From the NCBI GenBank assembly GCA_951406725.2, contig CATOCA020000001.1, positions 10,478,001 to 10,542,000 on the forward strand: 64,000 bases of DNA. The letters run 5' to 3'. The position numbers and the translations under genes are program-made. Each line of letters starts with the position of its first letter. Position 1 is the first letter of the stretch. Under the pieces are notes generated by a model. It had not been told where the DNA came from. It did not search any database and worked only from the letters and a program-made list of their open reading frames with translations. The DNA is from Octopus vulgaris. Its lineage: Eukaryota. Below are positions 1,831 through 39,305 of the stretch, one piece after another.

Positions 1831-1856
1831 TGTTTCCCAAATCTCAGAACAAGCAG
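1831..1856 (+). pseudogene. Truncated 26-nt exon cassette (FPKSQNKQ), frame-shifting
   Basis: 5' part of exon 21708 joined to a CAG|GTaaat donor; 26 nt is not divisible by 3. Confidence 0.55.
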
Positions 1857-2461
1857 GTAAATAGGTTTACCTGAGCTATTTTGTTCGTAGGAATTATTAA
1901 GAATATGTTCTATTCCTAAATTCCAATTGCACGTTTTAGCTGTAAACTGATTATATTAAAGGGATCGATATTACTGACATTTCATAATTTAACCACTCAA
2001 GTTAACATGTTTGGTAAAATGGATAATTTAGAAGACACAATAGATTGAATATTCTCTTTTTGAACGGGGATATATAATATGTTATACTTTATCACGTGAG
2101 TAAAAGATTTTGTTTGTTTTACATTTTACTACGTTTACTGACTGGTTATTGTTGTTGCTATTCAAGCAGGTGCCTCTCATTATCTGGTTCACTTACAAGG
2201 AAATGCATTCCAAGTTTGAACACTTTTCTTTCTTCACGACGAGGAAATCTATCACTACATCCATTAAAGATTGTCTTTGTCCAAGTGGAAGATTTTCGTC
2301 TGTTGCACAGACTACCATTGCCACTTTCCCATTCATAAATATAGATACTGACTGTATGATGCAATGCAAGCCAATGCATTCAAAGAAATGACACACGTAT
2401 TGAAGGAAGACAGGATACTGAACATTTTAGATAGCCTAGTTCAATATTTAAGAGACGAGAA

Positions 2462-2927
2462 CTCATCTTGTTTGTTGTTAACACAACGTTTAGGCTGATA
2501 TACCCTCCAGCCTTCATCAGGTGTCTTGAGGAAATTTCGAACCTGGAGGTATTAATAACACGCACCAAGTATGGATTCAGAACATCCGTATACCGCAAGC
2601 CGACCTTTACCGGACGATACATCAACTTCATTTCCCACCATCCTTACAGTGTAAAGAGAGGGATTGCTCAGTGCCTAAAACATCGAGTAAAGAATATAAG
2701 TAGCGATCGTGAAACCCACAACGAAGAAATGATCACGCTAAGTAACAATCTATTAAGCAACAACTACCCAAAAACATACTATCCACTCCAATTATGAAGA
2801 AAAGAGAGGATGAAACCAATAAACTGTCCAGTCTGTCTACCTTATGTGAAAGGCCTCTCCGAAAAGATACAAAAGATATGCGGCCCATATAACATCGGGC
2901 CACTATTCAAGAGTAAAACCACACTTC
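2462..2927 (+). mobile_element. Penelope-like element fragment (inverted pLTR plus RT thumb/linker)
   Basis: FRTSVYRKPTFTGRYINFISHHP..NNYP..CLPYVKGLSEKI; mutated hammerhead on the minus strand at 2480-2525. Confidence 0.8.
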
Positions 2928-3430
2928 TTCCTTCAGCATTTGGTGATGATGTCGCTCACACCAGAATTCTCTCTGATCGCTTGATTACGGATATATATAT
3001 CACCGAACTGTAATGTGACATCCGACATAATTAAACAATATTGCAATTACTTCACGTAATTATCTCTTTATAACACTGTTTCTCATTAGTTTAGTTTTCT
3101 TCTCTTATATCTGTACCTTAAACTCACTCAAATGCAGAGAGATATGAAAGGAAAGGCATAGAGGAAGAATACTGTTATAAAGAGGTAATTAAATAATTTC
3201 AATCTTGTTAAAACATGCTGGATATCTGAATACAGAGAGGATAGATAGGAAATCTGCGCATATTTTGAAGGCTCTAATTAATGTGTTAAACAGTATGAGT
3301 TGCTCACCAAAGATATAGTGGTCATCCGTTGACCATTTAAGAAAAAAATGTCGAATAATATCAAAATATAGATTAAGAACTAAAACCAAATCATACAATA
3401 AAATGTAATACGTGAAAATATTCATTTCAG

Positions 3431-3481
3431 ATTATGGAAGAGATTTCGCCAAAAGGACCCAACCCAGTTTAAAACATTATG
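3431..3481 (+). pseudogene. Exon cassette with donor GT>AT (YGRDFAKRTQPSLKHY)
   Basis: Paralog of 13728-13778; acceptor and frame intact; donor reads ATgagttt. Confidence 0.65.
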
Positions 3482-5074
3482 ATGAGTTTAAAATTATATT
3501 ACCTCATCGATTTCCATAAAGATTCCGTCATGTTTCACTGATAGTAAATTTACCATGAACTTATATGAAGTAAATTAGGTGGTAACAGTTTTGGGGGACA
3601 TCTGATATTTCTTTCTCCTAGACCTGTGTAGAATTAATTATTCCTCACTTGGGATGAAATCTATGTCATTCAGGGGTCTTCAAATATTTTCTACATGAGA
3701 TGACATTCTGGTGAACGTAGATGTGGGCAGTTAAAATTAAAGATTACCAGCAGCAATGTTTCACACAGCGAGTAGGTGTTTGTATCTAAAGTGAAAGGAA
3801 TTTGAAGACAGATATTTGATGATTAACCTTGTTGACACTGGAAGTGAGCAGAAAATTATAAGATTGTTTGATTAGTGAGTTCTACTGTAGATGTGAAAAC
3901 GCCATGTCATAGATGCGTCACAAATACGCACGTTGATGTGGGCAGTTAAAATCAAAGATTACCAGAAGCAATATTTCACAGAGAGCAGGTACTTTCTGTC
4001 TAACGGTAAGTGGTGTGACCAGTTTTTGTAGATAGATATATGGTTATCCACTTGCTTGACATTGGAGTTGAGCAGAAAACGAGAAGTTTGGTTCGTGACG
4101 TTTACTACGGTAGAGGTGAAAACGCTATGTCATAGATGTGACAGAAATACCACCTTGACCATGATCGACTGACTGAGTGTATTGACGACACCAGAGATCA
4201 CAGTACACCCTCCACTTCTGTCTTCATCTTGACCTTCTCACCTACGTAGCATGTCGTATTTCGTCAAACACTCACTTTTGGATTCGCTCTCAGTGACCTC
4301 CTCTGCTCGCGTATATAACTCTCAACAACTGAGCATCTCTTAATATTTTCAGTGAGCTGGTTACCTGTCCCATCTGAAATTTTGTCATAAGTTTTTAGTG
4401 ATGATGTCTCTCACACCTGATTTCCCTCTGATCGCCTCACTCTTGATGTGCAAATTTAGCAACACTCCCAAACCTCGATTTTTCGATTGTGCTTTGGGCC
4501 ATTATCAGACTCACATCCTCCATCTTCATTATGTAACAGCTTTCAAACCTGTTGTAAATTGCCGGTAAATAGGTGTTGTTGAAGAGGTTTATGTGATTGG
4601 TTCAATCCGACTTCGTTTTGAGACCAACTTTCATATATCAACGCAATGTATTGTGACATCCAACATAATTTAACAATATTGCAATTACTTCACGTAATTA
4701 TCTCTTTATAGCAATGTTTTTCAGTAGTTGAGTTATCCTCTCTTTATACCTGTGCCTTAAACTCCCTGAAAATCAGAGAAATACGGAAGGAAAGAGAAAA
4801 CTAAAAGCAAAATATTGTTATAAAGAGACAATGAAATTAAATAATTACAATATTGTTAAATTATATTTGATGTCTGAATACAGAGAGTAAAGAGAGGAAA
4901 TTAGTTAATATTTTGGTGGCCCTTTATATAGAGTTTTGTTATATTGAAAGCGTGCATAGTGGTCAGCCGTTGACCATTGACAAAAGAAATAAGTCACAAT
5001 AGTGAAATATAGATTATTAACAAAGATAAGCACATCATGCTATACAACGCAAATCTTGGAAATATTCATTTCAG

Positions 5075-5161
5075 AACATTCAACAGCAAGTATAGTAACC
5101 GGAGCCAGTGCCGATTCCGGTTTACAATCATCTTCTGGAGTAGATGAATCAGAGGAAGAAT
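5075..5161 (+). CDS. Phase 1-1 micro-exon, 87 nt (EHSTASIVTGASADSGLQSSSGVDESEEE)
   Basis: aatattcatttcAG / GTaagtat, length divisible by 3, no stop. Confidence 0.7.
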
Positions 5162-7899
5162 GTAAGTATGAAATAATATTAAGTTACCGATTTCTATACA
5201 TTTCAATTTATCTCAGAGCTTTTGTATGTTAGAACGACTGAGTACAGATTCTATCCCTAATTAGATTCGAAAGTTTGTTGTATAATAATTCTATTCAATA
5301 TATCGATATTATGAAATTTCACAAAATATCCAACGAAGTTAGCGTGGTTTGTAACATGGAAAATTGAAACGGGAATATATTTAGTATAGTTTTGAGAAAG
5401 AGAGAACTAAGCTAATTTGTTTAGGAATATAAATTTAGAGTTAATGACAGCCGTTTTTGTCACATTTTTTACCACATTCACTCGTAGGTTATTATTGTTA
5501 TTGTTGTTATTTAAACGGATGCTTCTCATAATCTAGAAGAATTACAATGAAATTCGTTTCAAGTGTAAACTCTCTGTTATGTTACACTGGTAGTAATTTC
5601 ATTATTACATCCACTACACATTGTCTTTTCCCGAATAGAAAACATTTCTTTGCTACTGTGATAATCGGTATCTGCCTTTCTTACTTCATGAAAGATACAG
5701 GTTGCACGATGCAAGTGAATCACAGGTAACAACCCCGACACTTATCGTTAGATGTCCAGGCTCCTATGGGCTAGATGAGTTGTCGCTGTCCAAGTCAGTT
5801 CTTCTTCAGAACTACTTCCCTTCTTCATTCGTAAAGGAACATATCTCACTTAAACATCACTGCTTTCATGTAGTGCTATGCCATTCCTGACACCAACCAC
5901 TTTCTAAAGGGTTCTAGGTGCATGTTATTGTTGCAAAGCATGTGAAATATTATCGTCTCTCTAAGAAAATGTCCAACAAAATCAGGAACGAAGAATTTGA
6001 GCTTGAGGATTGCAGCAGGAAAGAAGTAGTTATCTTTGGGTATAAGGCAAGGTGAGGCTGTACATTAGAAAGTTTCAAGTCTTGTATAAGGTTTTGTTGT
6101 AGGCATCACATAATGGTGGAGCTTTCGGGTATAAAGTTGGTGTGATTGATGGCTGGAGGAAGAGAGAAAGATTTTGCGTACAATTTAAGCTAAAGCGAAA
6201 CTAATTCGCAAGTTGGCACCGATTGCAATTATGATTGCTAAGATTTCCATGGTCAGAGATCAACTACACATCGACAAAATAACTCTAATGAGACTGAAAG
6301 TGTGACTGCAAAAGAATCCGTTGACATCCTGAGTGTTTGGGACATGCCTTGTAAAAGTGGGACCAACATACATAGAAAAATAGAAGTGATTTGAATGTTG
6401 TATGGTTGGATCAGTCTAATGCTTAGGGATGTGAACAACATAAACCATCGAGAAAAGCAATGGCCTTCGTTTACATACAGGAGGATTTTAAAAATATGAC
6501 GAAGAGTTGGTTTAACAATTTCCAAATGCTATTCGTTACACACATATTATACAGAGAGTAGGATTGGCGTGAAACTAGAGTAGGATGCAAAATGTCAGTC
6601 TTTGTTAATGAGATGTTACTCAGATCAGCAGACTGCTCAGCAGATATGGCTGAAGAAACATCATCGATGACATACAAATAAGGGAAAGAGATCAAAAGAA
6701 TATGCTAATAGTTTTGGACAACCGGAATGGATTTAATCCTTGGTCGAGATTAAGACTTAATGCAAATAAATAATACGGTTTTTTAATTGTCAAAGGGCAG
6801 CAGAAACAAGTGATATACAACGTATCAAGAGAAACCATGACATATTTTAATGACAAATTTGTAAGTATTTCGTATGCTGGTAGGCTTCCCTATTGTCTAG
6901 TAAGAATAGAGATATTGAGATCATGGTAAAAATCGATAATGGTTTATAAGCAATAGATTTGTGAAAACCTCAAAGTAAATATAGTATATGATGTTTCTAG
7001 CATGGCTTGCGTATGTATTTTTGAGAATCAGTTCTATTATGTACCATTTCGGATGCATTTTATGCAATGATGTGTAGATAAACGGCGGTGTAGTTTTGGG
7101 GGTACCTGATACCAATTTCGCCAACAACTTAGTAGAATAAATTATTACTCATCTGGAAAGAAAACTGTTTCCGTAAGGAGGTTTCACACATCTTCTGTAT
7201 CAGAAGACATTCTGGCGAACGTTGGTGAGAGCGGTTAAACTTAAAGATTACCAGCAGCAATGTTTCACGCAGAGAGTAGGTGCTAGTTGTCTAAAATGAA
7301 GTGGTGTGAAATGTATTTGAAGATCGATATTTGATGATTAACCTTGTTGACATTGGAAGTGAGCAGAAAATTATAAGAATGTTTGATTAGTGAGTTCTAC
7401 TGTAGATGTGAAAACGCCATGTCATAGATGCGTCATAAATACGCAGGTTGATGTGGGCAGTTAAAATCAAAGATTACCAAAACCAATGTTTCACGGAGAG
7501 AGCAGGTACTTTCTGTCTAACGGTAAGTAGTGTGACCAGTTTTTGTAGATAGATGTATGGTTATCAACTTGCTTGTCATTGGAGTTGAGCAGAAAACGAA
7601 AAGTTTGGTTCGTGAGGTTTACTACGGTAGAGGTGAAAACGCTATGTCATAGATGTGACAGAAATACCACCTTGACCATGGTCGACTGACTGAGTGTATT
7701 GACGACACCAGAGAACACAGTGCATCCTCCACTTCTGTCTTCATCTTGACCTTCTCACCTACGTAGCATGTCGTATTTCGTCAAACACTCACTTTTGGAT
7801 TCGCTCTCAGTGACCTCCTCTGCTCGCGTATATAACTCTCAACAACTGAGCATCCCTAAATAATTTCAGTGAGCTGGCTACCTGTCCCATCTGAAATTT

Positions 7900-8200
7900 T
7901 GGCATAAGTTTTTAGTGATGATGTCTCTCACACCTGATTTCTCTATGATCGCCTCACTCCTGATGTGCAAATTTAGCAACATTCCATAACCTCGATTTTT
8001 CGATTGTGATTTTGGCCATTATCAGACTCACATCCTCCATCTTCGTTGTGTACCAGCTTTCACACCTGCTGTAAATTGCAGGTAAATAGGTGTCGTTGAA
8101 GAGATTTATGCGATTGGTCCAATCCAGCTTCGTTTTGAGACCAACTTTCACATATCTATGCAATGTACTGTGACATCCAACATAATTGAACAATATTGCA
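7900..8200 (-). mobile_element. RTE LINE fossil (copies near 4385-4670, 14690-14980 and 16550-16840)
   Basis: LFNDTYLPAIYSRCESWYTTK..IREKSGVRDII resembles the RTE motif LFNSTVLPAMLYGSETW..IRERSGVRDII. Confidence 0.65.
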
Positions 8201-8609
8201 AATACTTCACGTAATTATCTCTTTATAGCAATAGTTTTCAGTAGTTGAGTTATCCTCTTTTTATACCTGTGCCTTAAACTCCCTGAAAATCAGAGAAATA
8301 CGGACGGAAAGAGAAAACTAAAAGCAAAATATTGTTATAAAGAGACAATGAAATTAAATAATTACAATATTGTTAAATTATATTTGATGTCTGAATACAG
8401 AGAGTAAAGATAGGAAATTAGTTCATATTTTGGTGGCTCTTAATATAGAGTTTTGTTGTAATGAATCTGTAAAGCGTGCTGACCAAAAGCATAGTGGTCA
8501 GCCGTTGACAATTGAACATAAAGATATCTTACGGTAATGGAATATTTTTGATTGATAGATATAATCACATTATAGTGTAAAATGTAAAACTTGAAAATAT
8601 ATTTTTCCG

Positions 8610-8672
8610 ACACATAGTCGCAAACAATACTGTCTCAAAACTTTCCTATGCTTGAAACAGAATCATTTGATC
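8610..8672 (+). pseudogene. Dead 63-nt exon cassette
   Basis: Cassette flanks conserved, but acceptor is CG, donor is ATgagtat, and there is an in-frame TAG. Confidence 0.55.
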
Positions 8673-9499
8673 ATGAGTATAAAATATCATTACCTTATCG
8701 ATTACTGTAAATTTTAACTTTACTGAATGACTGACAACATCTTCCAATCCACATTTTGCATTTGAAAAGTTTGATGCATAATAATTCTATTAAATATTTG
8801 TTGTGCAAGATTTTTTTATGTGAAGTCGTGTGTTGAAACAGATATTATTATATTTCGGAATGGTCATTTTGCCAGTTTAGCCAATAAAACATATCGATAT
8901 TATTGCAATTTCACAAAATATCCGATGTGGTGAGAATGGTTTGTAAAAGGGATAACTTCGAAGACAATAGATTTTATATTTCACTTTGGAAGAGAAAACT
9001 AATATTTGTAGTTTTTAGCGATAAACATTCGTGTTAATGACATTTCTCTTTGTTTTACATTTTATATTATGTTTGCTGATAGATTAATATTGTTATTTTG
9101 GCTGATATTTCTAAAAAAGTACTTTGAAAGGTATTTCAAGTATAAGCAGTCTGTTTTATTTCACAGATATTTCATTACATCCGCTAAACATTGCCCTCAT
9201 CCAACTTACTTCTGTGATAGTTGTTGTCTATATTTCTTACTTCAAAACAGATACTGGTTGCAAGATACTATACAATAATTGACAATCTCTTCATCCTTCA
9301 TCGTCTGATTACCACGCTCCCACCTCTTGATCGGATAGCAGACACATCTCAGTTAACCATTCTAGGTTTTATATGAGGGTATAATTTCCTAAAACAAACC
9401 ATTTGATAAAGTGTCCTAGGTGCATTTTATTGTGGTACAAGCAAAAGAAACGTTGATGTCTTTCTAATAAAACCTCAAAGAAAGTCAGGAATTAAACTT

Positions 9500-10450
9500 T
9501 TAACTGAGAGATTGCAGCAAGAAGGAGGCAAGAGCAAAAACTGCATTATATAAGCATTATATAATAGTAAGGGTTTGTAGTATAAAATTGAAGGGATTTA
9601 TGACTGATATAAGGCAGAAAGAGTTCACTTATGAAAGGAATCTGAATCACAATTAATTGGCCAATTGAAATTAGTTTCAATCCTTAATGACATGCTTTAC
9701 GTGGATGTACATGCTAAGAGATCACCTATACAACTACAAAATAATTGATATGTGATGGAAAGTGTTCAGATGACTGGAATCCGCTGACTTTCTTGGTTTG
9801 AAGGACATGAAATGTCAAACTGGGATCAACACACAAAGGAGAATTGAAGTAATTTGAATGTTGTATGGCTTGATCGCTCTAAAGCATATGGTTGTGGACC
9901 ATACAAATTATTGATGAAATCAATGAACTTCTTTGACATACTAGGGCAGTGTGAAGGTCTGATGATGAGCTGGTATAACAATTTCAAAAGGCAGCTCATT
10001 ACAAACCATTTTACAGGGACTGTCATCGGAATTGGAGCAGGGTGCACAATATTAATCCTTCAGTTTCGAGATGTTACTTAGATCAGTAGTCTGCTCAGAA
10101 GAAATGACCCAAGTGAAAGAACAAGACAAGACATTCATGGATGACATAAAAATACTATGTAGAGACCAAAATGTTATGCAAATATTTCTGGATAGCCTGG
10201 GTGGACTGATTACTTTGTCAAGAATTTGACTTAAAGCAAATAAATAATACAATCTGTTATTTGTGGAAGATCAGCAGAACAAAGTGAAGTTCAAAGTAGC
10301 AGGAGAAACTATGTATACGTTTAGGGAAAAACTTATAAAATTTTCGGACAGTGTTGCGCTGCCTCTTTGTCCAATAATTGTAAGGGCATTAAGATGAAAA
10401 CGAAAACATGGGAATGGGTTAAAAGAAAGAGAATATTCGAAACTTGCTGG
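9500..10450 (+). mobile_element. Degenerate Hero/NeSL-like non-LTR RT fossil
   Basis: VVWLDRSKAYG..GCTI..FMDD resembles WLDLANAYGSVPH..GCTISP..AFMDD; many stops. Related copies at about 1-230, 5990-6900, 19080-20030 and 21829-22100. Confidence 0.6.
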
Positions 10451-12033: not shown

Positions 12034-12125
12034 GAAACTCCAACAATAATAAAATATATATTATTAATATCTAGATTTAAAATATTTTATTATAAATTTT
12101 AAAAACCTTGAAATATTTATTTCAG

Positions 12126-12151
12126 GGTTTCCCAAGTCTCAGAACAAGCAG
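12126..12151 (+). pseudogene. Truncated 26-nt exon cassette, second copy
   Basis: Duplicate of 1831-1856 with AG and GT present. Confidence 0.55.
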
Positions 12152-13727: not shown

Positions 13728-13778
13728 ATTATGGAAGAGATTTCCCCAAAAGGACCGAACACAGTTTAAGTCTTTATG
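13728..13778 (+). CDS. Phase 1-1 micro-exon, 51 nt (YGRDFPKRTEHSLSLY)
   Basis: aatattcatttcAG / GTgagttt, open frame. Confidence 0.7.
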
Positions 13779-15384: not shown

Positions 15385-15465
15385 ATATTCCAACACAAAT
15401 TCACAGTGCCAGTCCCGTTCCCCATTCTCAATTACATTCTGGAGTAGATGAATCAGAGGAAGATT
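15385..15465 (+). CDS. Phase 1-1 micro-exon, 81 nt (IPTQIHSASPVPHSQLHSGVDESEED)
   Basis: aatattcatttcAG / GTaagtat, open frame. Confidence 0.7.
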
Positions 15466-17260: not shown

Positions 17261-17341
17261 ATATTCCAACACAAATTCACAGTGCCAGTCCCGTTCCCCT
17301 TTCTCAATTACATTCTGGAGAAGATGAATCAGAGGAAGATA
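17261..17341 (+). CDS. Phase 1-1 micro-exon, 81 nt (IPTQIHSASPVPLSQLHSGEDESEED)
   Basis: AG/GT intact; 3 nt different from 15385-15465. Confidence 0.7.
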
Positions 17342-18191: not shown

Positions 18192-18254
18192 ACACATAGT
18201 CGCAAACAACACTGTCTCCAAACTTTCCTATGCTTGAAACAGAATCATTTGATC
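18192..18254 (+). pseudogene. Dead 63-nt exon cassette, second copy
   Basis: Duplicate of 8610-8672 with the same lesions. Confidence 0.55.
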
Positions 18255-21707: not shown

Positions 21708-21779
21708 GGTTTCCCAAGTCTCAGAACAAGCAAGTCCAGACAGAGGCATTTACTTCAAAAGATGCATCACAGCAAGTTG
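21708..21779 (+). CDS. Phase 1-1 micro-exon, 72 nt (FPKSQNKQVQTEAFTSKDASQQV)
   Basis: atatttatttcAG / GTgagtat, open frame. Confidence 0.75.
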
Positions 21780-23083: not shown

Positions 23084-23125
<42 letters not shown>

Positions 23126-23250
23126 TATAAATATATATATCAACATACATCTATATATACATACATATACATATATACATTCACACACACATAAATATGT
23201 ATGTGTATGCGTGTGTGCGTGTGTGTATGTGCTTGTGTGTTTGTGTGTGT
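22970..23250. repeat. (TA)n/(TG)n microsatellite (paralog at 28993-29283)
   Basis: Directly visible. Confidence 0.95.
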
Positions 23251-23982: not shown

Positions 23983-24033
23983 AGACGCCAGCACTTGTTG
24001 ACAATGAAGTTCAAACAGAAGTAGGACCAGTTG
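23983..24033 (+). CDS. Phase 1-1 micro-exon, 51 nt (TPALVDNEVQTEVGPV)
   Basis: atatttatttcAG / GTgagtat, open frame. Confidence 0.75.
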
Positions 24034-24379
24034 GTGAGTATAAATCAACATTACCTTTTTGATTTCTATCTAGTTTGCCATTACCTCATCTACTTTATTA
24101 AGGAGGATACGTGAGAAGTAAATGAGATATGTAAGATGTCTTAATTGAGAGCGGAGATTTAGGAATGCCAATCAATTTTGTTGAGGGCATCAATAATGGG
24201 CCCACTATCCGAAGTAGAGATGAGTAGCATATTGGAACCTGCATTAAGGAAATATAGGAAAATAATCCCTAAAATTTGGTTCATAATTTCCCCCCTGGCG
24301 TACAGCATGCTTCTAAAACCCCAAGATTCCGTGTTTGATTTCAGGCAGTGACGTGAATAATAATGATGATGATGATGAA

Positions 24380-24444
<65 letters not shown>

Positions 24445-24461
24445 TAATAATAATAATAATA

Positions 24462-26817
24462 GTTCAGCTGCTCAATGGAATTATGAGAGACCCAAAGAAA
24501 ACACCTGAATGGTTAGCACGTGGCATTACTTACCTACTCCCAAAGAATAACGAAACCAACCTTCCAAAAAACTATAGGCCTATAACCTGTCTATCCACCA
24601 CGTATAAAATCCTAACATCTATCCTGGCGGAGAAAACATATGCATTCATGGAGAAGAACGATATTCTCCCCATTGAACAAAAAGGGTGCCGCCGAGGCTC
24701 TTACGGATGCAAAGATCAACTGCTAATCAAGCGTATGATCCTTGAGAACTGTCACAACAAGCGCAGAAATTTCAGCACCGCATGGATTGACTATAAAAAG
24801 GCCTTCGACAGTATACCGCATCCATGGATCTTGAGATCGCTGGACATCTTCAAAATTTCCCCTGTGATTTCAAACTTCCTGAAGCACAATATGTCGTTGT
24901 GGAATACGAATCTCCAATTATACCACTCTAATGGAGTACTTGCCTAAGAAAATATAAACATCAACTGTGGAATTTTTCAAGGTGACTCACTTTCACCTTT
25001 AATATTCTGCATAGCCCTAATACCACTTACAAGTGAATTAAACAGAACAGGGTATGGGTATAAAATTGCCAATAAAAAAATAAGCCATCTATTTTATATG
25101 GATGACTTAAAACTTTATGGTAAAGACAATAATGAACTTGAAGGCCTATTGCACACCATGAAAGCATTCAGCGATGACATCGGGATGGAGTTTGGACTTG
25201 AGAAGTGTGCCAAGGCAACTTTCCAGAAAGGTAAAGTGAAGACCACAAATTCAGTCGTGTTAGATGTTGACACAGTCATAAGAGAGCTTGAGCAAGAACA
25301 AACATACAAATATTTAGGGATAAATGAAGGGTCTGGTATTCAGCATGCAAGCATGAAAGAGAAAATCAGGAAGGAATGTTATAGGAGAGTTCGTGCAGTC
25401 CTGAAATCTGAACTAAATGCACGTAACAAGGTGTTAGCTATAAATTCCTTAGCAGTTCTAGTTGTTACTTATAGCTACGATGTGTTGAACTGGAATATGA
25501 GTGAAGTAAAGAATATAGATAGAAAAATACGCAAGCTGCTGAGTTGTAATAGGATGCACTACCCAAAGGCAGACGTAGATCGCCTTTACCTTCCCAGAGC
25601 CCAAGAAGGTCGAGGCCTGATCCAATTTGAACTAGCTTACAAAACAACCACAATTGGACTGGCCAAATATCTCGAAATATCGAATGACTGGATGCTAAAG
25701 CTCGTGGAAAATCACGAGAGACGAAAGAAGCTTCATTCTATCATAAAGGAAAGCAAAAAATTTGCTATTGATCTCGTGCAGGATACCCAAACTGAACAAC
25801 CCGAGGGAAGTAGGGCAACTATTGTTGCAAAGAAGGTAAAAATGATGCCAATGAAGAAAGCGCACGAGCAATTGGCTGATAGGTGGGAGGAGAAACCTCT
25901 GCACGGCAAATATGTGACCCGCATCAAACAAGCTGATGTTGACCAGAAGCAAACCCATCAGTGGCTACGGAGCTCAGGGCTAAAAGCAGAGAGCGATGGT
26001 TTCATCCTGGCTGCTCAAGATCAAAGCCTATTAACCCGGAACTACCAGGCCAATGTGATGAAAAATGGAGCAGACCCAAAATGCCGATTCTGCAACGACA
26101 TGATTGAAACAGTGGACCACCTAATCTCTGGATGTAAAGTCTTAGCACCAGTGGAGTATAAATTAAGACATGACAGAGTTGGCCAATATCTCCACTGGCT
26201 AATAAGTCGGCATTACAATATCAAAACTGCCGACAAGTGGTATAATCACCACCCTGAGGCTGTAACTGAAGGAGAAAATGTAACCATTCTGTGGGACTTT
26301 CCAGTACATACAGACCGACCCATCAAGGCCAATAAACCAGATATTGTTGTGAAAGACCAAAACAATAAAGTTTGCTTATTGATCGACATGAGCATCCCCT
26401 GTGATCATAATATCTCAGCGAAAGAGTTTGACAAGCTCAGAAAATATAAAGACCTACTCATTGAAATTGAGAAAATGTGGCATCTCAAGGCAGTTACAAT
26501 ATCAGTGATCGTAGGAGCACTAGGAATGATCAAGAAGGGAACCGAAAATTATATGAGAATGATCCCTGGCTTACCAACCCTGCAAGAAGTGCAAAAGATT
26601 GTCTTAACTGGTACATCACACGTATTGAGAAGAGCATTGTCGATGTGAGAACTGTTGCTGCTCATGTATTTTAATTTAACTTTAAAAAAAAAAAAATGAA
26701 CGAACTACTGAGTTTGGTTTAATGGCTTACCAATGTATACTATGAGTTTCTTTGCCCTAGGAGTCGGGAAGACACTCGGCAAGAAATGGAAGAGAATTTG
26801 AAAGAAGAAAAAAAAGT
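24462..26817 (+). mobile_element. Dong/R4-clade non-LTR retrotransposon, 5'-truncated (RT, CCHC, restriction-like endonuclease)
   Basis: Motifs NYRPITCL, EQKGCRRG, AWIDYKKAFDS, GIFQGDSLSP, YMDD, CRFC..ETVDHLISGC, RHD, KPDIV, IVGALG. One in-frame TAA at 24945-47, with both ORFs in the same frame. (TAA)n on both flanks. Confidence 0.9.
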
Positions 26818-30012: not shown

Positions 30013-30063
30013 AGACGCCAGCACTTGTTGACAATGAAGTTCAAACAGAAGTAGAACCAGTTG
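30013..30063 (+). CDS. Phase 1-1 micro-exon, 51 nt (TPALVDNEVQTEVEPV)
   Basis: AG/GT intact; duplicate of 23983-24033 with one substitution (G>E). Confidence 0.75.
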
Positions 30064-30361
30064 GTGAGTATAAATCAACATTACCTTTTTGATTTCTATC
30101 AAGTTTGCCATTACCTCATCTACTTTATTAAGGTGGATACGTGAGAAGTAAATGAGATATGTAAGATGTCTTAATTGAGAGCGGAGATTTAGGAATGCCA
30201 ATCAATTTTGTGGAGGGCATAAATAATGGGCCCACTGTTGAAAGTATATAAATATTGACCGAAACCTGTGTGAACTCTTGATGATAGGAATCTCTCACAA
30301 TAACAGAATATAGATTATTGTAATGATAAAATGGTTTTAGTGTAAATAATATTTATTTCAG

Positions 30362-30415
30362 AGAATCTAAAGCTTGAAGGGAAATAAGTGCAGACGATGG
30401 TAGCAGAGCCAGTTG
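30362..30415 (+). pseudogene. Dead 54-nt exon cassette (NLKLEGK*VQTMVAEPV)
   Basis: AG intact, in-frame TAA (probably from CAA), donor ATaagtat. Confidence 0.65.
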
Positions 30416-31207
30416 ATAAGTATAAAATAACAGCCCACAAATGTCTATTTTGCCTTTGTTTCTATGGCTGCCTCATGTGTCGATAGAGAAAATGGTGAAA
30501 TACGACAGAGAGTGATCTGGGAGGGAGGGTTAGTTTATAAGTTTGTGAAAGGAAGTAGTAGAGGAAGGAGGAATGGTGGATATGTTTGGGAATGAGAAAC
30601 AGTAGGGCATCATATGTGCATGTAGGTACATGAGGGAGAATGGAAGAGAATGCGACATGTGCGGGGGAGGCATTGTTGGGGGACAAACAGGCGCTTATGC
30701 CCTTGATTTAGGTTGGTGGTTGTTCTCAAGCACAGCAAACTGCCAAGTGACTGTTAGGCTCAACATTTCAAGATCATTACTCACCATTTCGTCCCATTCT
30801 TCCTGGGAGTTCATTAGGGAAATCTGGAGGTGAGAGAACAATGCCATATCATAGACTGGGCTCCGATAGATGAAAGGGAAAATTAAGCTAAGAGATAATC
30901 AGTGTTATCAAGTGATAATTATATAAGATAATTATTAGATTATGTAGATATCTTAATAGAGTGATCTTAGATTATGTGGGATGTCTTAATATGGAGATAT
31001 ATGAAGGTTAGTCTATTTAGTGGTGGACCTGAATATTGAGTTATTACATGGTATCCCTATAGGAAGTATGAAAATGTTGACCCAAGCCGTAAGGGTCACC
31101 AGTTGACCATCAAGGACAGGAATGTCACAGAATAACAAAATTTTGATTATTAATTAAGATAAAGACATTTTTCTGTAAAGTGTAAAATTTAGAAAATTTT
31201 GTTTCAA

Positions 31208-31258
31208 TTACTTTAACGCTTGTTGACAATGAAGTCCAAACAGAGGTGGAGCCAGCTG
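31208..31258 (+). pseudogene. Exon cassette with acceptor AG>AA (TLTLVDNEVQTEVEPA)
   Basis: tttcAA acceptor, intact GTgagtat donor, open frame; an in-frame upstream AG at 31191-92 could substitute. Confidence 0.6.
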
Positions 31259-31789
31259 GTGAGTATAAATTGCCAATACCTTATTGATTTCGATCAATTT
31301 TACCATTATCCAAACAACTTTGTTTGACAGAATGACTGAGAACAAGTTCTTTTGCTACATTTATTTCGAATGGTTAGCTACACATTTTTTTTCTATTCTT
31401 GTACAACTACAGGAATATCCAAGAAATGGATTTTATAGTAAAGTGGAAGCATCAGATATTCTTCCACTCAGAAAAAAGGCGTCTCAAGATAAGGAGAAAT
31501 ATGCAAAAGATAAAATATAAACCCTTAAGCGGTTCTGTCCCTTTAAGGAGAATAAATACCGTCTGTCATCTCAATTTAGTCTCTCTCGTCCTCTCCCTTT
31601 TTCGCTCTCTTCCACTCCCTTTGTATACAACAAGCAGCAGCTCCTCTCGTTCCCAGTCAAGTAACCACATCAATTTGTTTTTTAAAATATTGTTATTATT
31701 GAAATTTAATAAAATGTCCACCAAGGTTATCGCTGTTGGCAAAATGGCTAAATTAGAAAACAGAATAGAGTTAATATTGTCCTTTGGGA

Positions 31790-32000
31790 AGGTGGTGAGC
31801 TGGCAGAAACATTAGAACGCCGGGCGAAATGCTTAGCTTTACTTCATCTGTCTTTACATCCTAAGTTCAAATTCCACCGAGGTCGATTTTGCCTTCCATC
31901 CTTTCGAGGCCGATAAATTGAGTACCAGTTGCGTACTGGGGTCGATCTAATCGACTGACTCCGTCGCCAAAAGATTCTGGCCTTGTGCCTAGAGTAGAAA
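31790..32000 (+). mobile_element. tRNA-derived SINE (related minus-strand copy at about 57120-57280; fragment at 62345-62450)
   Basis: ggtggtgagctggcagaa A-box-like head, gttcaaattcc B-box, agtaccagttgcgtactggggtcgat body. Confidence 0.7.
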
Positions 32001-34429
32001 ATGATATTGTCCTTTAGAATAGGAACTAAAAGGATTTTGTTGTTTAAAGGTAAACGGGTGATTTAATGACAAAGTGTTTGTTCGTTTTACATTTTTAGTA
32101 AGCTTACTGATTGATTATTGTTGTTGGTGCTTTTGCTTAACCAGATGTTATGGTGAAACTTGTTCCAATAGTGAACAGCCTGGTTTTTTTTCACTGTCAT
32201 TACGTCCACTATTCAACCATTACATCTATTCAATATTGCCTTTATTCAAGTAGAAGGCTGTTTTGCAGCTCAGACAAACTCTCTCTCTCTCTCCGCCTTT
32301 CTTTGTTTCTCTCTTTTTCTCTCTCTCTCTCTTTCTCGCTCCCTTTCACTATCTGCAAGTTTCAATACAGTAAATGATATCATCCTCTCCCTTTTATCAT
32401 CTGCTCTCTATGCTCCCATGTACTGGATGGGTGGTCACTGTCCATGTCATAACAGTAAACTACCCATAATGATTGCTTGAGGATTACCTCTCAATTAACC
32501 ATTCCAGCTTTTTCATGGTGGTATGCCCTTCTTATCACCAACCACTTTACAAAGGGTCCTGGGTGAATATAATTGTGGCACAAACACTACAAGAGATTGC
32601 CATGTCCTCGGCAAGATTAAACCTCCCTCTCAACCTTACGGTGTCAATTCTCATCCAACAACCACCTCCTAGTGTGTAGTGGGAGCATTTGATCATAGCA
32701 CCAGCATTAGTGAGGTTGTGTCACATTCCAAATTATTAGAAAGTTAGTCCTCACTACTCTATGATGTGTTTGTTCACTGATATGTTTAAGATGGGAGAAG
32801 AAGAGATTATAGAAGAATCGGAATGCAAAGACTAAAAGATACGAGACAATAAGGATAAAAAAAGTGATTCGAAGGAGCGGTGGAGGCTGACAACAGTAAA
32901 TGATGGAGACTGAGTTACAACGGTGTGTGAGGTACCAGAGTGCTTAATTATTTATTAACATTCCTTGGTTGCTCACTCTCACTGTTTCTCTTGCCCTCCT
33001 CCTCTCACTGGGTAATCATGTATGTCTTCTACTATAGGACACCTGTTTCAATCCCTCTGTCACAGTCGAACCTGTCATCCCCTGACACACGACCACCTCC
33101 TCCTCCAATGCTCTCCCTCTCAAAGGTTTTTTGTCTTGCAAGTTCTTTGGTGACCCCCACCAGTGCTTGTGGATCCAGACCCCACTGTAAGGTTGTTGGT
33201 GTTGGGAAGAGTATCCAGCTGTAAAATCCTGCCAAATCAGACAGTGAAGCCTGGTGCATTCTTCTCCCTAGCCAGCCCCTGACAAAACGTACAAACCCAG
33301 CCAGAATGGGGAACCGACGTTCAATGATGATAGTGGTAGTGATGGTAGGTAGCGATGGATACTAATTACTTGCAAATACATCAAAGTTATACATGTTAAA
33401 TTAGGAGATAGACTGACCAAATCTCAACTGAGATAATGGATAATTACAGGTTTCTGGATTGCCATAAATACTAGTAATTACTAAAAGATCACATGGGTAA
33501 TTACAGGGTTATATATTTCTGTGAATATTTTCATATATATCTGTATATTTGTAAAACACTAATTAGTATTTTAAATCAGAGCATTTAGAATTAGCCCAGC
33601 ATTAAGGAAGTGGAGTGCAGAAAGTTATTGACTATAAATTATCAATAATTATTCGTTATCTCTAAATCGGTAAAAGGCAATTTCTGTTTTGTTTATTCGA
33701 ATTTTATTTACCTCATTCATTCATAGAATTGGTGTTGGGGCTAATCTAATTTTTAACGTCTAACATGGGGTCAGGGAGAGAGAGAGAGCGAGAGAGAGAG
33801 AGAAAGAGAGAGATCATAAATCTTACGATTGGTCGTGTAATAGCTACTCAGGCCATATTTAGTACTCACATACATACACACACACATATATAACAATACG
33901 CAGCTGGTCACAGCCTCCGTAAAAAACACCCAGATCTAACCCGTCAAATATTCCATTCTTTCATCTTGTTAAACATCACAGAGTTAACTTACAAAATACA
34001 GTGTTTTGTTTTGTGGGGTGGAGTGTGGTAGCAGTCGGGATGCAATAAATTATTTCCTCATTGTTCAGTATGTGGTTGTACATGTGTAGACCTTCTAGTA
34101 TTAACCACAATTGAAGTGGTCAAGGTATACATAGCCAGATCATCATGGATATCGCTCTTCAGTAACAAACTCCGCTGGTGTATATCAGTGTTTTCAGCTT
34201 GTAACCCCACTGATGTCGCTATTTCCGTGTTTATCTACAATAAATGAAATGGAAAGTGTCTTGAAAATGGTGTGGTAGGAATGTTGTGCAATGTTTTCGT
34301 TAAATTGAGAAGATTTGATATTTTTTGTGACTCGAATTGCGTAGGAAGTTGCTGTTACAAATTAATATTACCCATTCATGTCTTTTGAAAATTTAATATA
34401 ATTTTATTTCTGTTGTTATTGTTATTCAG

Positions 34430-37306
34430 ATGATCACTACATGCAGATACCACGTTTTGACTGTAAAAGTATTATGAAGTCGCATTCATCCAAATTCCGT
34501 CCCCTTTGCCCAGCTGTGTCCAAAATATTGCAGCTCACAGACTCCGATAATGATTCCAAGAACCTGGTCACAGTTTCAAGAATCGTTGAAATCTGCAATG
34601 GAATAGTAACCTATTCACCAGATTTGAAGTTAATAAGTTGTGCCACAACAGGCGGTGATTTTGATTTTCATTGTTCTTCTAATGTCACAGACATGACAAG
34701 AATTGGTGAACACACTGTTCTAGCCACAATTCCTTTCCGCAAGAAAATAGTTTTCATTAATCCATCAAGTTTCCACATAAAATCTCTGGATTATAGTTTC
34801 TTTACAATTTCTATTTCGAACATTCTACATTTGTAGGGACTGAAATGTTTAGTAAGACAATATATCTCATAGACTGGGATAAAAATAAATTTGAAGAAAA
34901 ATTTAGTGTGCAAGAAATTGTTGGAAACATAGCAGTTGGTCCACAGTATCATATCTTAATAGCCTTAGCTAATATAAATAGAATTAGCTGTTACACAATA
35001 GATGGCAGACACTTGTTTCAGTTGAGGACCCATTCCATCGATATTCCAACCGACCTTACCGTATATCGAAATTATTCTTACGCTCTGCAAGGAAATGTAA
35101 TTTACAAGATTTCAGCAAACGGTGCTGTGTCCCAAAGAGAAATTGGGATAAAAGCTCGATATATTTGTGTGGCAACAAATAATATTTACTTGACTGACCG
35201 TTTTGGTCTTGTACATATTATTAGGACAAATAAAGATTTTTGGCCTCGGCTGTCTTACCATCACCAAGACCATGTCCCGAGCCTGATAAACCAAATCCAT
35301 ATTGATGACCCCTCCAACATTACAACGATTCTACCTATGTCAGCCTCTTCAGTAGTAATTATATATCGGGATCTAAAAGCTATATTAGTTACTGGCGAAG
35401 GGCAACCGTTTGGTGGAAAATGTTTAACCTTTAAACTCCAGCCTTCTGTTTTCTGCAGAGTGGATTCGAACACATTTATTGTCCTTTTTAGTGAGGACAG
35501 GAAACTTCAATATGTTACCTGTCCACAACTAACTGAAGGTGATTTAATAGACGTCGAAAACAATTACATTCAAATGTGTCATATGGTATCAAATAGGTGT
35601 TTGGCTCTGACCACCAATGAAGGTAACGTGGAGGTACATATTTTATTGATTAAAACGGATCATGTCGACATTGTAAACAGAATTTCATTGGAACATGACA
35701 ATGTCGCCATTGCTGCTACTCCAATTAATTTTGTAGTTGTAGACAGAAAGAAACGTAACTTGATATTTTATTCAAGCTTTGGTGAGGAGCTTTCCAAGAA
35801 ACACATTGAGTTCAATGGCTATCCTCATCATGTTTTCACAGACAAATTATACTTCTATGTTATCTTCAGGAGAGAGTCTTTGATGACTTGTTACAATATA
35901 ACTGGACAAAGGAAATGGCAGTTGAAACTTCCTTCAAACTTTCGCTGTCACGCTGCTGTTTTCCAAGGAACAGCTTATGTGCTGGACGATCTGCTCAGTC
36001 GGATTCTTCTTTACAAGTACCATGACTGGTCAGACTGTCATGTAACCTTTCAAAACCCTTATAATAAAAATCTAAATATTCGACTCGAAGAAAAGGAGAA
36101 TGACCAAGTTCTCATTGGTGAAATATGTCATCTGGCAAATGGACAGTTGGTGTTGTCCGACATATATAATGATTGTTTGTTATACATTTCCAACGAAGGG
36201 AACATTGTGTCTAGATTATCTCTGCCGTCTACAGCTACAGATATATGTCGATGGAATTATAATCAGATAGGCGTCACATTACCTCTAGAGAAGCAATTAC
36301 GGGTCTTCGGAAACGTATCAAAGACAGTTATATGTGTAGCATTAAACCAGGCTTATGTACGGGTGTGTAAGCTGGGTGAAAGTCATATTATTTGTTATTG
36401 CGATAAACCATCGCATTTAGATATTTTAAACATTAACAATTGTAATCAAGTTCAAATAATTCATAAAATTAATATTCCTTTTGTAATGAAATCATTATCG
36501 TTAGAAAATGAAACACTAAAACTATTGATTGTTGGTAAGAAAACAGTATTCTTCTACAAGATCACCAGGAGGAGGACGAGGGGGAGAAAGAGGAGGAGGA
36601 GAAGACGTGTTTTACCATCCCAAGTGAAAACACCCTCCAATCTCTATGGTTATGACGGTGGTCCTTATAGCATTGAGATGATACCCAATATTTTACTGTC
36701 GCAAGGGAAAACACAATCCAATCTCTATGGTGGACGTATTGATAAAATGTGTGTCCATTTGATAGACAACAGCCGCATGTTTGCTGTAAATGAGCATGAC
36801 TTGCTGGTGAAAGATCATGTCACAAGAAGCCAAATTAACATGTTCATCGATCTGGTAGATGTATTTTCTAGAAACATCAGTCTCAGTGAAATGTTGTCTT
36901 CTAGATTGTATCTACAAGATCTCACTGTTTCTGATAAAGCTCATGAAGTTGTTGTCCCTCAAAGTTTTGGAGATAAACATCCAGTGGAGATTGGTTGTTT
37001 GGTTATTACAGAAAATAACCTGGTTGCTTTATATGACAGCACAAATGAAAACATTAAGATATTAACTTTTGATGGTCAACTTGTTGACTCTATCAAGTTA
37101 AATGTTGTCCCTAGACATATGTGTTGCTGGCGATCAAACACATTGGTTATAACGACCAATAACTATCAACTTCTGACATTAAAAGTGGAATTCCCATTGG
37201 TCTTGGCAACTTACCACACGGAAAATAGATACAATTGTATCGCTTGTCGATCCGACAATCTACTGGTGTGTAGCAGCAGCAGCAGCAGCAGAAGCAGTAG
37301 TAGTAT

Positions 37307-37342
<36 letters not shown>

Positions 37343-39305
37343 CAGCAGTAATGTTGGTGGTGGTACCCGCATACCCGAAATTGAAAACGGCCTGTTTTAT
37401 ATATATATCGATGAAATACAGTCAGCTGTCCGTATTATGAGAGAAATAGACTTATTTTGGATGTGCTACAGATATAATATCACCCATATCTCAGTTATTG
37501 CTAATGACAACATCATCGTCAATACCGAGAGGCTCATCACTATTCTGAACCCGAACGGGCAATATTTATATTCATTTAAGCACAGTATTTATTCCCGACC
37601 CATTTCTATGGCAACCGATGATACTTATTTGTACATTACTGGACGGAAGAACATCTATGAAAACACGAAAAAGTATCGTATTGTCTCATTGTTGCAGAAC
37701 GGTGAATACAAGAGAATATTCTTAAATGAAAGACATTATAAACGTCCGTTGGATTTCAACAGTATTAACTGTAAAGGCCCGAGAATTGTTGCAAACTATG
37801 ACTCGTACTTATATATTGAAGGTTTGTACAAGATTAATCGGCAAAAATTCCCCGTTTCACGGTTACAAACAAACAATTGTCCTGTTCAAGTAAAAGATAT
37901 CGATATCTCTGATGAAGGAAAGACAGTTGTGTGCGAAATGGCCAATAGTGGAAATGTTAAACTATTTGATGATGACGGGAAGTTGCTATGTTACAGAGAT
38001 TTTGGAAGTTTTGTTGGTGGTGTATGTTTTACAGGAGAAAGAAATATCTTGGTCACAGTCCCTAACAGACAAGAAATATTTCAACTGAAGTCACAAAACT
38101 TGGAGAAATATAAAGTTTGGGAAAGTCGAGTACCTTATGGTATAATATGGAGAAAAGTGGGAAATATTTACTGGTGTGTACATATCAACATGATTGAATG
38201 TGATACTATAAAAATTGATGGGGACCAACTGAAGGTTCTGGAATCTATGTTGTTATCGAATATTGATTTTGGCCTTCATTTCCCTTCCATTACATCTCAG
38301 AAGAACAAGGGAATGTTCAGTAATGAATTATTTAACAAACTTAAAAACGGTGGCGATGGAGGAGAAAGAAGAAGTACATCAAGAGAAATAGAAGTAAGAC
38401 GTGGTAATTACATAGCGGAAAGTATGTTAGGAATTGATGAAATATCAGTGAGAAGACTGCCACATAGAACAGCAATGTTCCCGCTTTCATTTTCTCTGTC
38501 TGGTTTACTAGATTCAAATTCGATGTTTTGTTTTCTTAATGCTTTTAAGCTAATTATGTTACAAGACAATAGTATCGTCGTGCTCCTCCATAAATGTACT
38601 CTCATGGTCACCAGTGGAGACGGTCATCTGCTTTACAGTCAAACATTTGAAAAAGAAGCTCAAGATATATGTCAATGGACCGATGAATCATTTGTAGTCC
38701 TCTTTCGTGACGATAAACAACTGATGTTCTTCGATACAGATTTGTGTCTTTTAAAAAAGATCACAACTGAAAAACCATACAATTTAATGTACAAAAAGAA
38801 CGGCAAAAATCTGGTATGTGTGTTTGAAGACGCTCCAAATGAATGTAGTAATATTCCATATGTGACATACGCAGACATACTTCACATTGGCGGTGAAATG
38901 TACGAGTATAAGGGCCGAGTGAATTTAGGGAAGGAGGGGAAGGTTGTAGCAATGGGTGTGACATCGAATGAAGACATTGTCGTTCTTAAGTACAAGGAAG
39001 ATCATTACGATGTATGTTGGTACAGAGACAATTGGGTAAGAAGTCAACAACTAATGATTCAAGGTGAGGAACCATTTCCAAACATTTTCAACAAATCCTT
39101 GACCATCCACGGCGAAAATATTTACATATCAGATTTTAATAACAATATCCACCAAGTATCTGTAGACAGCAAATGCGAAATCTTTCTCAGCTCTCAGGAA
39201 ATTGAAGTCTGTCACATCAAGGCCATACATGTTTCGGATTATTTCATCATGATTTACGGAAATTTGGACAACCGTTTTGATGGATTATTTTATTATGAGA
39301 GATAA
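34430..39305 (+). CDS. Giant terminal exon encoding about 6 tandem NHL-like beta-propeller domains (TRIM/B-box-NHL-like C-terminal region); one frameshift at about 34797-34836
   Basis: Acceptor ttattcAG at 34428-29, phase 1 (xAT GAT CAC TAC ATG). Frame 1 is open to 34836; frame 3 is open from 34797 to TAA 39305 (1486-aa ORF). A ~270-aa unit recurs with blade motifs such as LVLSDIYNDCLLYISNEG..LPSTATDICRWNYNQIGVTLP, VALYDSTNENIKILTFDG..VPRHMCCW and EAQDICQWTDESFVVLF. Family call is by motif resemblance only. Confidence 0.8.

What the first reader, a model, noticed from the sequence alone, without database searches (positions are those of the whole stretch)
1831..39305. Birth-and-death array of symmetric micro-exons feeding a giant multi-propeller exon
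Seen: at least 14 cassettes share flanks (..aaatattYatttcAG and GTRagtatRaaat..ttacc..cgatttc), so they descend from one ancestral exon. Seven are intact, all phase 1-1 (5075, 13728, 15385, 17261, 21708, 23983, 30013), and splice without stops onto the phase-1 acceptor at 34430. The joined peptide reads ..GVDESEEE-Y-YGRDFPKRTEHSLSLY-D-IPTQIH..-R-FPKSQNKQVQTE..-E-TPALVDNEVQTEVGPV-E-TPALVDNEVQTEVEPV-D-DHYMQIP... Seven more cassettes are defective. Inference: a length- and sequence-tunable disordered linker, open to combinatorial splicing, on a six-propeller recognition protein. The ORF track misses this structure entirely.
Basis: partly seen in the sequence, partly recalled or inferred. Interest (0 to 1): 0.85.

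Follow-up and report, generated by a model that had tools for sequence, protein, structure and literature searches.

The report
Octopus ligase-propeller fusion with micro-exon linker
The tiny repeated exons are real and lie in an octopus gene that likely joins an ankyrin-RING ubiquitin-ligase head to a giant exon predicted to fold into six propellers; three of them carry likely docking sites for the pairing protein LC8, but this copy of the gene is broken by a one-base deletion.

Summary
All 14 cassettes are there as described: 7 intact phase-1/1 exons and 7 defective. (1) The giant exon is frameshifted at 34811, so the frame entered at 34430 stops at 34834-34836, after 134 codons. One other genomic copy shares the deletion; six close copies lack it. 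(2) The array is the linker of an octopus ankyrin-RING gene whose ATG lies 40.8 kb upstream. Its relatives end in a death domain; here a six-propeller exon, taken from a separate family of giant single-exon genes, ends the gene. Nine copies of this tail exist, 97.7-99.7% identical, with different cassette sets and, in four, different heads. Contigs of four RNA-like runs join cassette 30013 to 31208 to 34430, all in the intact frame, so sister copies or alleles seem to be the expressed ones. Three of the seven intact cassettes fit published LC8-binding rules; binding is untested. The scan had already noted the LC8 cassettes and the propeller family on other DNA; their fusion is what this window adds.

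The parts
1831..1856 (+). Defective A-type cassette, cut to 26 nt by a new GT donor (not a multiple of 3)
3431..3481 (+). Defective B-type cassette (donor AT)
5075..5161 (+). Intact C-type cassette, 87 nt, phase 1-1; Ser/acidic, no LC8-rule match
   Evidence: near-identical peptide in O. sinensis model P0096
8610..8672 (+). Defective D-type cassette (acceptor CG, donor AT, stop)
12126..12151 (+). Defective A-type cassette, 26 nt
13728..13778 (+). Intact B-type cassette, 51 nt; no LC8-rule match
15385..15465 (+). Intact C-type cassette, 81 nt
17261..17341 (+). Intact C-type cassette, 81 nt; copy of 15385 in a 1.87-kb duplication
18192..18254 (+). Defective D-type cassette
21708..21779 (+). Intact A-type cassette, 72 nt; fits LC8 rule (N-K-Q-V-Q-T-E); same length, flanks and 3' end as the first death-domain exon of sister genes
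23983..24033 (+). Intact E-type cassette, 51 nt; fits LC8 rule (D-N-E-V-Q-T-E)
24357..26648 (+). Non-LTR retroelement reverse-transcriptase frames (one stop between them) lying between the two copies of the E-cassette unit
30013..30063 (+). Intact E-type cassette; donor used in RNA-like contigs
30362..30415 (+). Defective F-type cassette (stop, donor AT)
31208..31258 (+). E'-type cassette; acceptor AA here and in 2 other copies, AG in 5 of 8; included in RNA-like contigs of 4 of 4 runs
34430..39305 (+). Giant last coding exon, six predicted beta-propeller units; intact copies read 1611-1613 codons from the acceptor
34810..34836 (+). One-base deletion at 34811 and the premature stop it causes (34834-34836)

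Best explanation
The window holds the middle and end of a frameshifted copy of an octopus gene in which phase-1 micro-exons likely join an ankyrin-RING head to a giant exon predicted to fold into six propellers, and in which the Q-T-bearing micro-exons likely act as docking sites for the dimerising protein LC8. Shown: the exon anatomy, the head 6-41 kb upstream in an open frame, the deletion, nine tail copies with different cassette sets, and joints from the last cassettes into the giant exon. Inferred: (a) the cassettes arose from the first death-domain exon and multiplied by unequal crossing over; phase 1-1 keeps the frame whatever their number; (b) a propeller exon from a separate single-exon family replaced the death domain; (c) each A/E/E' cassette binds one LC8 dimer, so cassette number (1-7 per copy) and skipping would set how firmly two chains are paired and how far the RING sits from the propellers; (d) the intact product would be a RING ubiquitin ligase with binding surfaces at both ends, working like a TRIM-NHL protein with LC8 in place of the coiled coil; (e) this allele would give at most a 681-residue truncated protein and is probably decaying.
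For: Head: nine exons from ATG (G000:C31:10437189) to a first cassette, all with GT donors and, after the first, AG acceptors; no stop in 546 codons through the seven window cassettes, first stop at codon 682; Pfam Ank and zf-C3HC4_3 above cut-off. O. sinensis model P0096 runs RING > cassettes C, C, B, C, A. Sister genes end in a death domain. Cassette flanks align with death-domain exon 1 flanks (z 4-29), the 34430 flank does not; cassette 21708 matches such an exon without gaps at 33 of 72 nt, shuffles mean 18.8, max 32 of 2000. Propeller exon: 132 matches in the genome, 36 in open frames of 1600 codons or more (counted by hand); the fused copies form one clade (100) beside the single-ORF gene P0005/P0006 (96) (quick tree). 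AlphaFold2 models all-beta in six blocks, mean pLDDT 74, best solved matches are multi-propeller proteins, NHL-type look-alikes. RNA-like contigs: joints 30063>31208 and 31258>34430 (GT..AG) in 4 of 4 runs from 4 studies, all with the extra base at 34810. LC8: 16 of 28 distinct 51-nt cassette peptides fit a rule written from PMC6607443, against 0.58 on average in shuffles (max 5) and 24 of 5025 windows in propeller proteins; the Q codon shows no amino-acid change but synonymous changes among 8 diverged cassette types (chosen for having Q there, so partly circular); all 9 tail copies keep 1-7 rule-fitting cassettes; the genome encodes a canonical LC8.
Against: No LC8 binding was measured or modelled. 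The E-type motif has N, not K/R, at position -3, and 4 of the 7 intact window cassettes (B, C types) plus the upstream cassette fail the rule; in two C29 arrays most of 14 cassettes have lost the Q anchor. No transcript evidence here links the head or cassettes A/B/C to cassette E; that link rests on exon order, frame and database gene models, some of which may come from this same genome. No copy in this assembly is clean end to end: the 4 copies with a head in range have broken propeller frames (134, 134, 357, 1493 codons; the last a one-base loss in a run of A, possibly an assembly error), while the 2 copies with intact frames show no head in 75 kb upstream (one has an assembly gap at -18.9 kb). 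The runs are RNA only by guess and no DNA run was laid as control. Pfam finds no family above cut-off in the giant ORF. E3 activity and targets are untested.
Confidence: 0.55

Rival explanations
1. The array is a neutral by-product: unequal crossing over in a repeat-rich chromosome keeps copying one symmetric exon, and the fused genes are mostly dying duplicates with no tuned function.
For: 7 of 14 cassettes are defective; 7 of 9 propeller copies are broken as assembled; the window copy has 14 private amino-acid against 5 silent changes, near the neutral ratio of about 3.8 to 1; cassette gains follow 2-10 kb duplications that also carry retroelements.
Against: pN/pS 0.23-0.61 in all 28 pairs of copies; contigs from four studies carry the intact frame and the spliced cassettes; every copy keeps at least one rule-fitting cassette next to the propeller exon; O. 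sinensis has the same E-to-propeller join (P0001, P0112).
Confidence: 0.22
2. One reading: the cassettes form a disordered spacer of adjustable length with no particular partner.
For: B- and C-type cassettes are Ser/Pro/acidic and have no LC8 motif; symmetric exons coding disordered linkers by tandem duplication are a known pattern (PMC3632108, abstract).
Against: The conserved columns across diverged cassettes are K(-3), Q(0), T(+1), which a mere spacer does not need; death-domain sister genes carry K-E-T-Q-T, the core listed for a dynein intermediate chain binder (PMC6607443 supplement rows).
Confidence: 0.13
3. The cassette-plus-propeller tail is expressed on its own, from other 5' exons, and only sits behind ankyrin-RING genes because they share recombining introns.
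For: 5 of 9 tail copies show no head in the 47-75 kb fetched; the two O. sinensis models with the E-propeller join start with unrelated short leaders; the RNA joints seen reach back only to cassette E.
Against: In 4 of 9 copies a head lies upstream on the same strand with no assembly gap and no death-domain exon found between; the RING exon ends in phase 1, as every cassette needs; P0096 joins RING to this subfamily's C, B and A cassettes.
Confidence: 0.1

Closest known systems
Octopus 'E3 ubiquitin-protein ligase MIB2-like' database models (e.g. XP_029652960.1, XP_036355957.1)
   Same: Ankyrin repeats, one C3HC4 RING, then 51-nt phase-1 cassettes; isoforms differ in cassette number.
   Different: They end in a death domain; this subfamily ends in a 1,600-residue propeller exon. 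The label is automatic annotation; I found no paper on the family.
Mind bomb 1/2 ligases
   Same: Ankyrin repeats followed by a RING of the same Pfam family.
   Different: No Mib/Herc2, ZZ or SH3-like N-terminal domains in the Pfam scan of full-length relatives, one RING only, and a long added tail. The Mind bomb domain list is recalled, not from a call.
Multivalent LC8 clients (ASCIZ, KANK1 L2, dynein intermediate chain)
   Same: Several Q-anchored motifs in a disordered linker; LC8 pairs two chains and can stiffen such linkers (PMC12017986 passages; PMC12803091 abstract).
   Different: Here one motif sits in one symmetric exon, so valency can change by exon duplication, exon loss and skipping; binding is not yet shown.
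TRIM-NHL proteins
   Same: RING at one end, a pairing element in the middle, NHL-like propeller at the other end (layout recalled); propeller look-alikes are molluscan NHL clusters.
   Different: No B-box found, ankyrin repeats before the RING, six propellers rather than one, and the parts come from two separate octopus families.
Symmetric exons coding disordered modules (PMC3632108)
   Same: Phase-symmetric, tandemly duplicated, often alternatively spliced exons carrying short motifs (abstract).
   Different: Here the module appears to descend from an exon of a folded domain and is still turning over between gene copies that are 98-99% identical.

Membership tests
Mind bomb (MIB1/MIB2) | Ankyrin repeat array | tested here: met
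   Pfam Ank above cut-off in two upstream exons
Mind bomb (MIB1/MIB2) | C3HC4 RING after the ankyrins | tested here: met
   zf-C3HC4_3, 29.8 bits, cut-off 27
Mind bomb (MIB1/MIB2) | N-terminal Mib/Herc2-ZZ-Mib/Herc2 and repeat domains (recalled) | tested here: not met
   The predicted gene starts at the same first exon as the short ankyrin-first models; Pfam shows only Ank, RING and Death in P0080, P0103, P0109
Mind bomb (MIB1/MIB2) | Two or three terminal RINGs (recalled) | tested here: not met
   One RING exon upstream; none in the giant ORF
Octopus ankyrin-RING-death-domain family | Ankyrin-RING head and phase-1 cassette linker | tested here: met
Octopus ankyrin-RING-death-domain family | C-terminal death domain | tested here: not met
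   No death-domain exon match between RING and 34430; present in 3 of 3 sister loci fetched
LC8/DYNLL client | Anchor: Q at 0, small branched or H-bonding residues at -1 and +1 | tested here: met
   V-Q-T in 21708, 23983, 30013 (and 31208); V-Q-T binders are listed in the paper's table. Not met in B and C cassettes
LC8/DYNLL client | Polar -4, large or basic -3, D/E/P at +2 | tested here: inconclusive
   A-type N,K,E fits all three; E-type D,N,E lacks the preferred K/R at -3
LC8/DYNLL client | Motif lies in a disordered region | not tested
   Inferred from composition and position between folded domains; no disorder predictor was run
LC8/DYNLL client | Measured binding to LC8 | not testable with these tools
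   Needs ITC or pull-down
TRIM-NHL | RING | tested here: met
TRIM-NHL | B-box and coiled coil after the RING (recalled) | tested here: not met
   Only short cassettes lie between RING and propeller; no B-box in Pfam scans
TRIM-NHL | NHL six-bladed propeller | tested here: inconclusive
   Predicted propellers; Atlas first hit 0.91 with NHL in 52% of members; weak hits to NHL proteins at E 7e-6 to 5e-5; no Pfam NHL hit in the window ORF
Microexon in the strict sense (3-27 nt; recalled) | Exon length | tested here: not met
   Intact cassettes are 51-87 nt

The most novel reading that the evidence does not exclude
Octopuses have built a modular family of ubiquitin ligases in which a death-domain exon was recycled into one-exon-one-site LC8 docking units; exon copy number and skipping set the dimer valency, and recombination inside the cassette introns swaps variable ankyrin-RING heads onto either a death domain or a captured six-propeller tail, giving a combinatorial sensor-ligase repertoire that re-invents the TRIM-NHL design from unrelated parts.
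Probability: 0.3. Interest if true: 0.85.

Novelty: new variant of a known kind. Interest (0 to 1): 0.6.

Why it matters
It shows a new multi-domain protein being assembled by exon shuffling, recently enough that nine copies still differ by only 0.3-2%, and it gives a natural series (1-7 sites per gene copy, 1-4 per splice isoform in a sister gene) for testing how the number of LC8 sites tunes pairing and activity of a RING ligase. It also flags two large octopus families, each with over 100 genomic matches, that annotation breaks up and for which my searches found no paper. The copy in this window is itself probably a dying one, which lowers its own importance.

Tried and rejected
A-to-I editing rescuing the AA acceptor at 31206-31207: considered because RNA-like contigs use exon 31208; rejected as unnecessary, since 5 of 8 genomic copies have AG, one with an identical exon. 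Assembly error as cause of the 34811 deletion: unlikely, a second locus (C31:4.67 Mb) has the same deletion and the same AA acceptor, and the site is not a long run; a false duplication is not the cause either, the two loci differ at dozens of sites and have different heads. No RNA holder listed: the run search had no holder on record as RNA. Joints among the upstream cassettes (5075-23983) could not be examined in reads and stay open. A structural model of LC8 with a cassette peptide was not available. Origin of the 34430 acceptor from the second death-domain exon: no similarity found. A second exon-identity count (17 of 72) was out of register by one base and is not used. First Pfam scan of the giant ORF: nothing above cut-off. 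Ankyrin-RING search with P0060 1-165 returned mostly bacterial ankyrins. One chance match (CIYV..., a repeat) was dropped from the 29 distinct cassette peptides before the count of 28; I counted only family-type cassettes and ignored chance matches. Literature searches that found no description of either family: and a term search in PMC9068888; the library lacks most subscription papers and bioRxiv supplements are closed, so gene lists I could not see may name these genes.
Full report
1. Observation. A motif scan of the window found the acceptor and donor flanks described, and the cassettes at the stated places. Seven are intact AG..GT exons of 51-87 nt, phase 1-1 and stop-free; seven are defective in the ways listed under parts. 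Their upstream flanks are homologous (z 3-43 among seven tested), and a flank pattern with a 51-nt gap gives 50 genomic matches against 0 for the reversed control. Self-comparison shows that the array grew by nested duplications: 1378-5449 recurs at +10295, 8414-12153 at +9582, 13894-15755 at +1870 and 21828-24206 at +6021, at 94-98% identity. So there are about six cassette types (A, B, C, D, E/E', F), not fourteen independent ones.

2. The error in the finding. The frame entered at 34430 in phase 1 reads 134 codons and stops at 34834-34836; the 1502-codon ORF is in another frame. Of the 7 closest genomic copies, 6 have one more base at 34811; the seventh (C31:4.67 Mb) shares the loss. Copies at C31:9.04 Mb and C31:2.78 Mb read 1613 and 1611 codons from the acceptor. 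The window copy has 14 private amino-acid changes and 5 silent ones. It is therefore most likely a decaying copy or null allele; as the stop is in the last exon, a 681-residue truncated product is possible (inference).

3. The host gene. The nearest named proteins are all from octopods. Upstream of the window (200 kb fetched) lie ankyrin exons, a RING exon and one more cassette. Nine exons from an ATG at G000:C31:10437189 to the cassette at 10473151 have canonical splice sites and, joined in a script to the seven window cassettes, give 546 codons without a stop. Pfam confirms Ank and C3HC4 RING. One ankyrin exon has 131 matches in the genome and 30 database relatives, most labelled MIB2-like; full-length ones are ankyrin-RING-cassettes-death domain, as are three sister loci fetched. 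An O. sinensis model (P0096) runs from the RING into C, C, B, C and A cassettes of this subfamily.

4. Origin of the cassettes. The first death-domain exon of sister genes is itself a 72-nt phase 1-1 exon with the same flanks (z 4-29). Cassette 21708 has the same length, flanks and 3' end and matches one such exon at 33 of 72 positions without gaps (shuffles 18.8, max 32 of 2000). An earlier scan note (e1-9554478) suggested this origin; these two calls are my test of it.

5. The giant exon. Its first 300 codons have 132 genomic matches, mostly on C28; 36 lie in open frames of at least 1600 codons, i.e. whole genes in one exon (counted by hand; one checked). Two AlphaFold2 models built on 35- and 36-row alignments are all-beta in six blocks (pLDDT 74; pTM 0.44 and 0.58, so the arrangement of the blocks is uncertain); Foldseek returns multi-propeller proteins at 8-11% identity. 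Profile comparison of the six units gives probabilities of 40-97% in 12 of 15 pairs. Look-alikes are molluscan NHL clusters and, weakly, NHL proteins. The profile search over 1.84 billion proteins gave only 16 hits. In a quick tree of 31 rows the fused copies form a clade (support 100) sister to the single-ORF gene P0005/P0006 (96), inside the stand-alone family (midpoint root, careful search unfinished). Those stand-alone proteins have an extra N-terminal stretch of about 150 residues that the fused exon lacks. The intron before 34430 is unrelated to cassette flanks and was found only at the nine fused loci. I read this as capture of a truncated propeller gene behind the cassettes, in place of the death domain.

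6. Birth and death across nine copies. The copies (window; C31 at 2.78, 3.19, 4.32, 4.67, 9.04, 11.74 Mb; C28:8.16 Mb; C4:176.56 Mb) are 97.7-99.7% identical to the C28 copy in the exon (8 compared) and mosaic upstream. They carry 1-7 cassettes that fit the LC8 rule. Four have a head in range, and the four RING exons differ from one another, which points to head swapping by recombination in the cassette introns (inference). Five show no head in 47-75 kb; one of these has an assembly gap just above its array. Seven of nine propeller frames or acceptors are broken as assembled; the C28 break is one A missing from a run of five and may be an error. pN/pS is 0.23-0.61 in all 28 pairs.

7. Expression. 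Four runs from four studies, RNA by guess and held as contigs, were laid on 29300-39500 (4 of 24 listed). All four show a joint from 30063 to 31208 and one from 31258 to 34430 with GT..AG ends, and all four carry an extra C behind 34810 at the full depth. At several sites private to the window they carry the other copies' base. So spliced, in-frame transcripts of the tail seem to exist, from sister loci or other alleles. No DNA run was laid as control. For the wider family, RefSeq isoforms of one O. sinensis locus hold 4, 3, 2 and 1 cassettes and those of another differ likewise; such isoforms usually rest on RNA-seq alignments (own knowledge). Splicing among this window's cassettes 5075-23983 remains unshown.

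8. Mechanism. Across cassette types the most conserved columns are K, Q, T and a late P, giving D/E-K-x-V/T/S-Q-T. PMC6607443 (passages and supplement rows seen) describes the LC8 motif as Q at 0, small branched residues at -1 and +1, a polar -4, a large often basic -3 and D/E/P at +2; PMC12017986 (passages) names V-Q-T as an anchor and says LC8 pairs two client chains; PMC12057147 (passages) quotes a gephyrin site, E-D-K-G-V-Q-C-E, close to cassettes; PMC12803091 (abstract) shows that many weak sites can turn a disordered linker into a rod. A rule written from these passages is met by 16 of 28 distinct 51-nt cassette peptides (shuffles 0.58; 24 of 5025 background windows) and by 3 of the window's 7 intact cassettes. 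The rule was written after I had seen the peptides, so the contrast is a description, not a blind test. The genome encodes an 89-residue LC8. The likely working model: LC8 zips two chains together through the Q-T cassettes, which pairs the RINGs (many RING ligases need pairing; own knowledge) and holds the propellers at a set distance; B and C cassettes add flexible length. Against: N at -3 in the most amplified type, and loss of the anchor in most C29 array cassettes.

9. Comparison and novelty. It is not a Mind bomb or a TRIM-NHL member by the tests above, though it would work like a TRIM-NHL ligase. Symmetric exons that carry short motifs are known (PMC3632108, abstract). Seven paper searches and one term search found no description of either octopus family (listings and abstract starts seen). 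I wrote the LC8 reading down before looking up earlier scan notes; these had reached the same idea at another locus (e1-9502820, e1-9554478) and had described the six-propeller family in another genome (e1-9520755). They are not independent proof. A look-up by the propeller sequence returned nothing. What this window adds is the fusion of the two families, its nine-copy turnover and the read joints.

10. Verdict. Real feature, partly misread; new variant of a known kind; architecture about 0.85 likely, LC8 mechanism about 0.6, both together 0.55; interest 0.6.

Noticed in passing
G000:C29:24096001-24102000 (L182) and 29248001-29254000 (L183): Compact arrays of 8 and 6 cassettes of the same 51-nt family at a period of 154-166 bp, in L183 right after a RING exon; many have lost the Q anchor and several gained C-x-x-C. 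Similar arrays recur at many places on C29 and C27.
   Followed up: partly
G000:C31 about 10468085 and 10469258 (9.9 and 8.7 kb before the window): Two copies of a small exon between the last ankyrin exon and the RING exon; some database isoforms include it, others skip it.
   Followed up: no
window 10860-11397 and 20444-20981: Degenerate copies (75%) of the intron and acceptor that precede the giant exon, ending at the acceptor; found only at the fused loci.
   Followed up: partly
window 37296-37350 and about 36570-36620: In-frame poly-Ser and poly-Arg tracts between propeller units vary in length among copies and in the contigs.
   Followed up: no
window 46900-47861 and 51205-51915: Tandem arrays of 121 bp x 8 and 171 bp x 4.2 at 95-97% identity; pieces of the second appear at the ends of two database gene models, probably as annotation artefacts.
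   Followed up: no
window 62741-63820 (-), 58463-58891 (+), 2435-2797 and 12730-13092 (+): Retroelement remnants; the first has a reverse-transcriptase Pfam hit, the others are judged by eye.
   Followed up: no
G000:C28, about 2.4-25.4 Mb: A very large cluster of single-exon six-propeller genes of about 1800 codons, unnamed in databases.
   Followed up: partly
G000:C1:216.93-216.96 Mb and 102.71-102.73 Mb: Tandem runs of the family's last ankyrin exon, most with stops.
   Followed up: no
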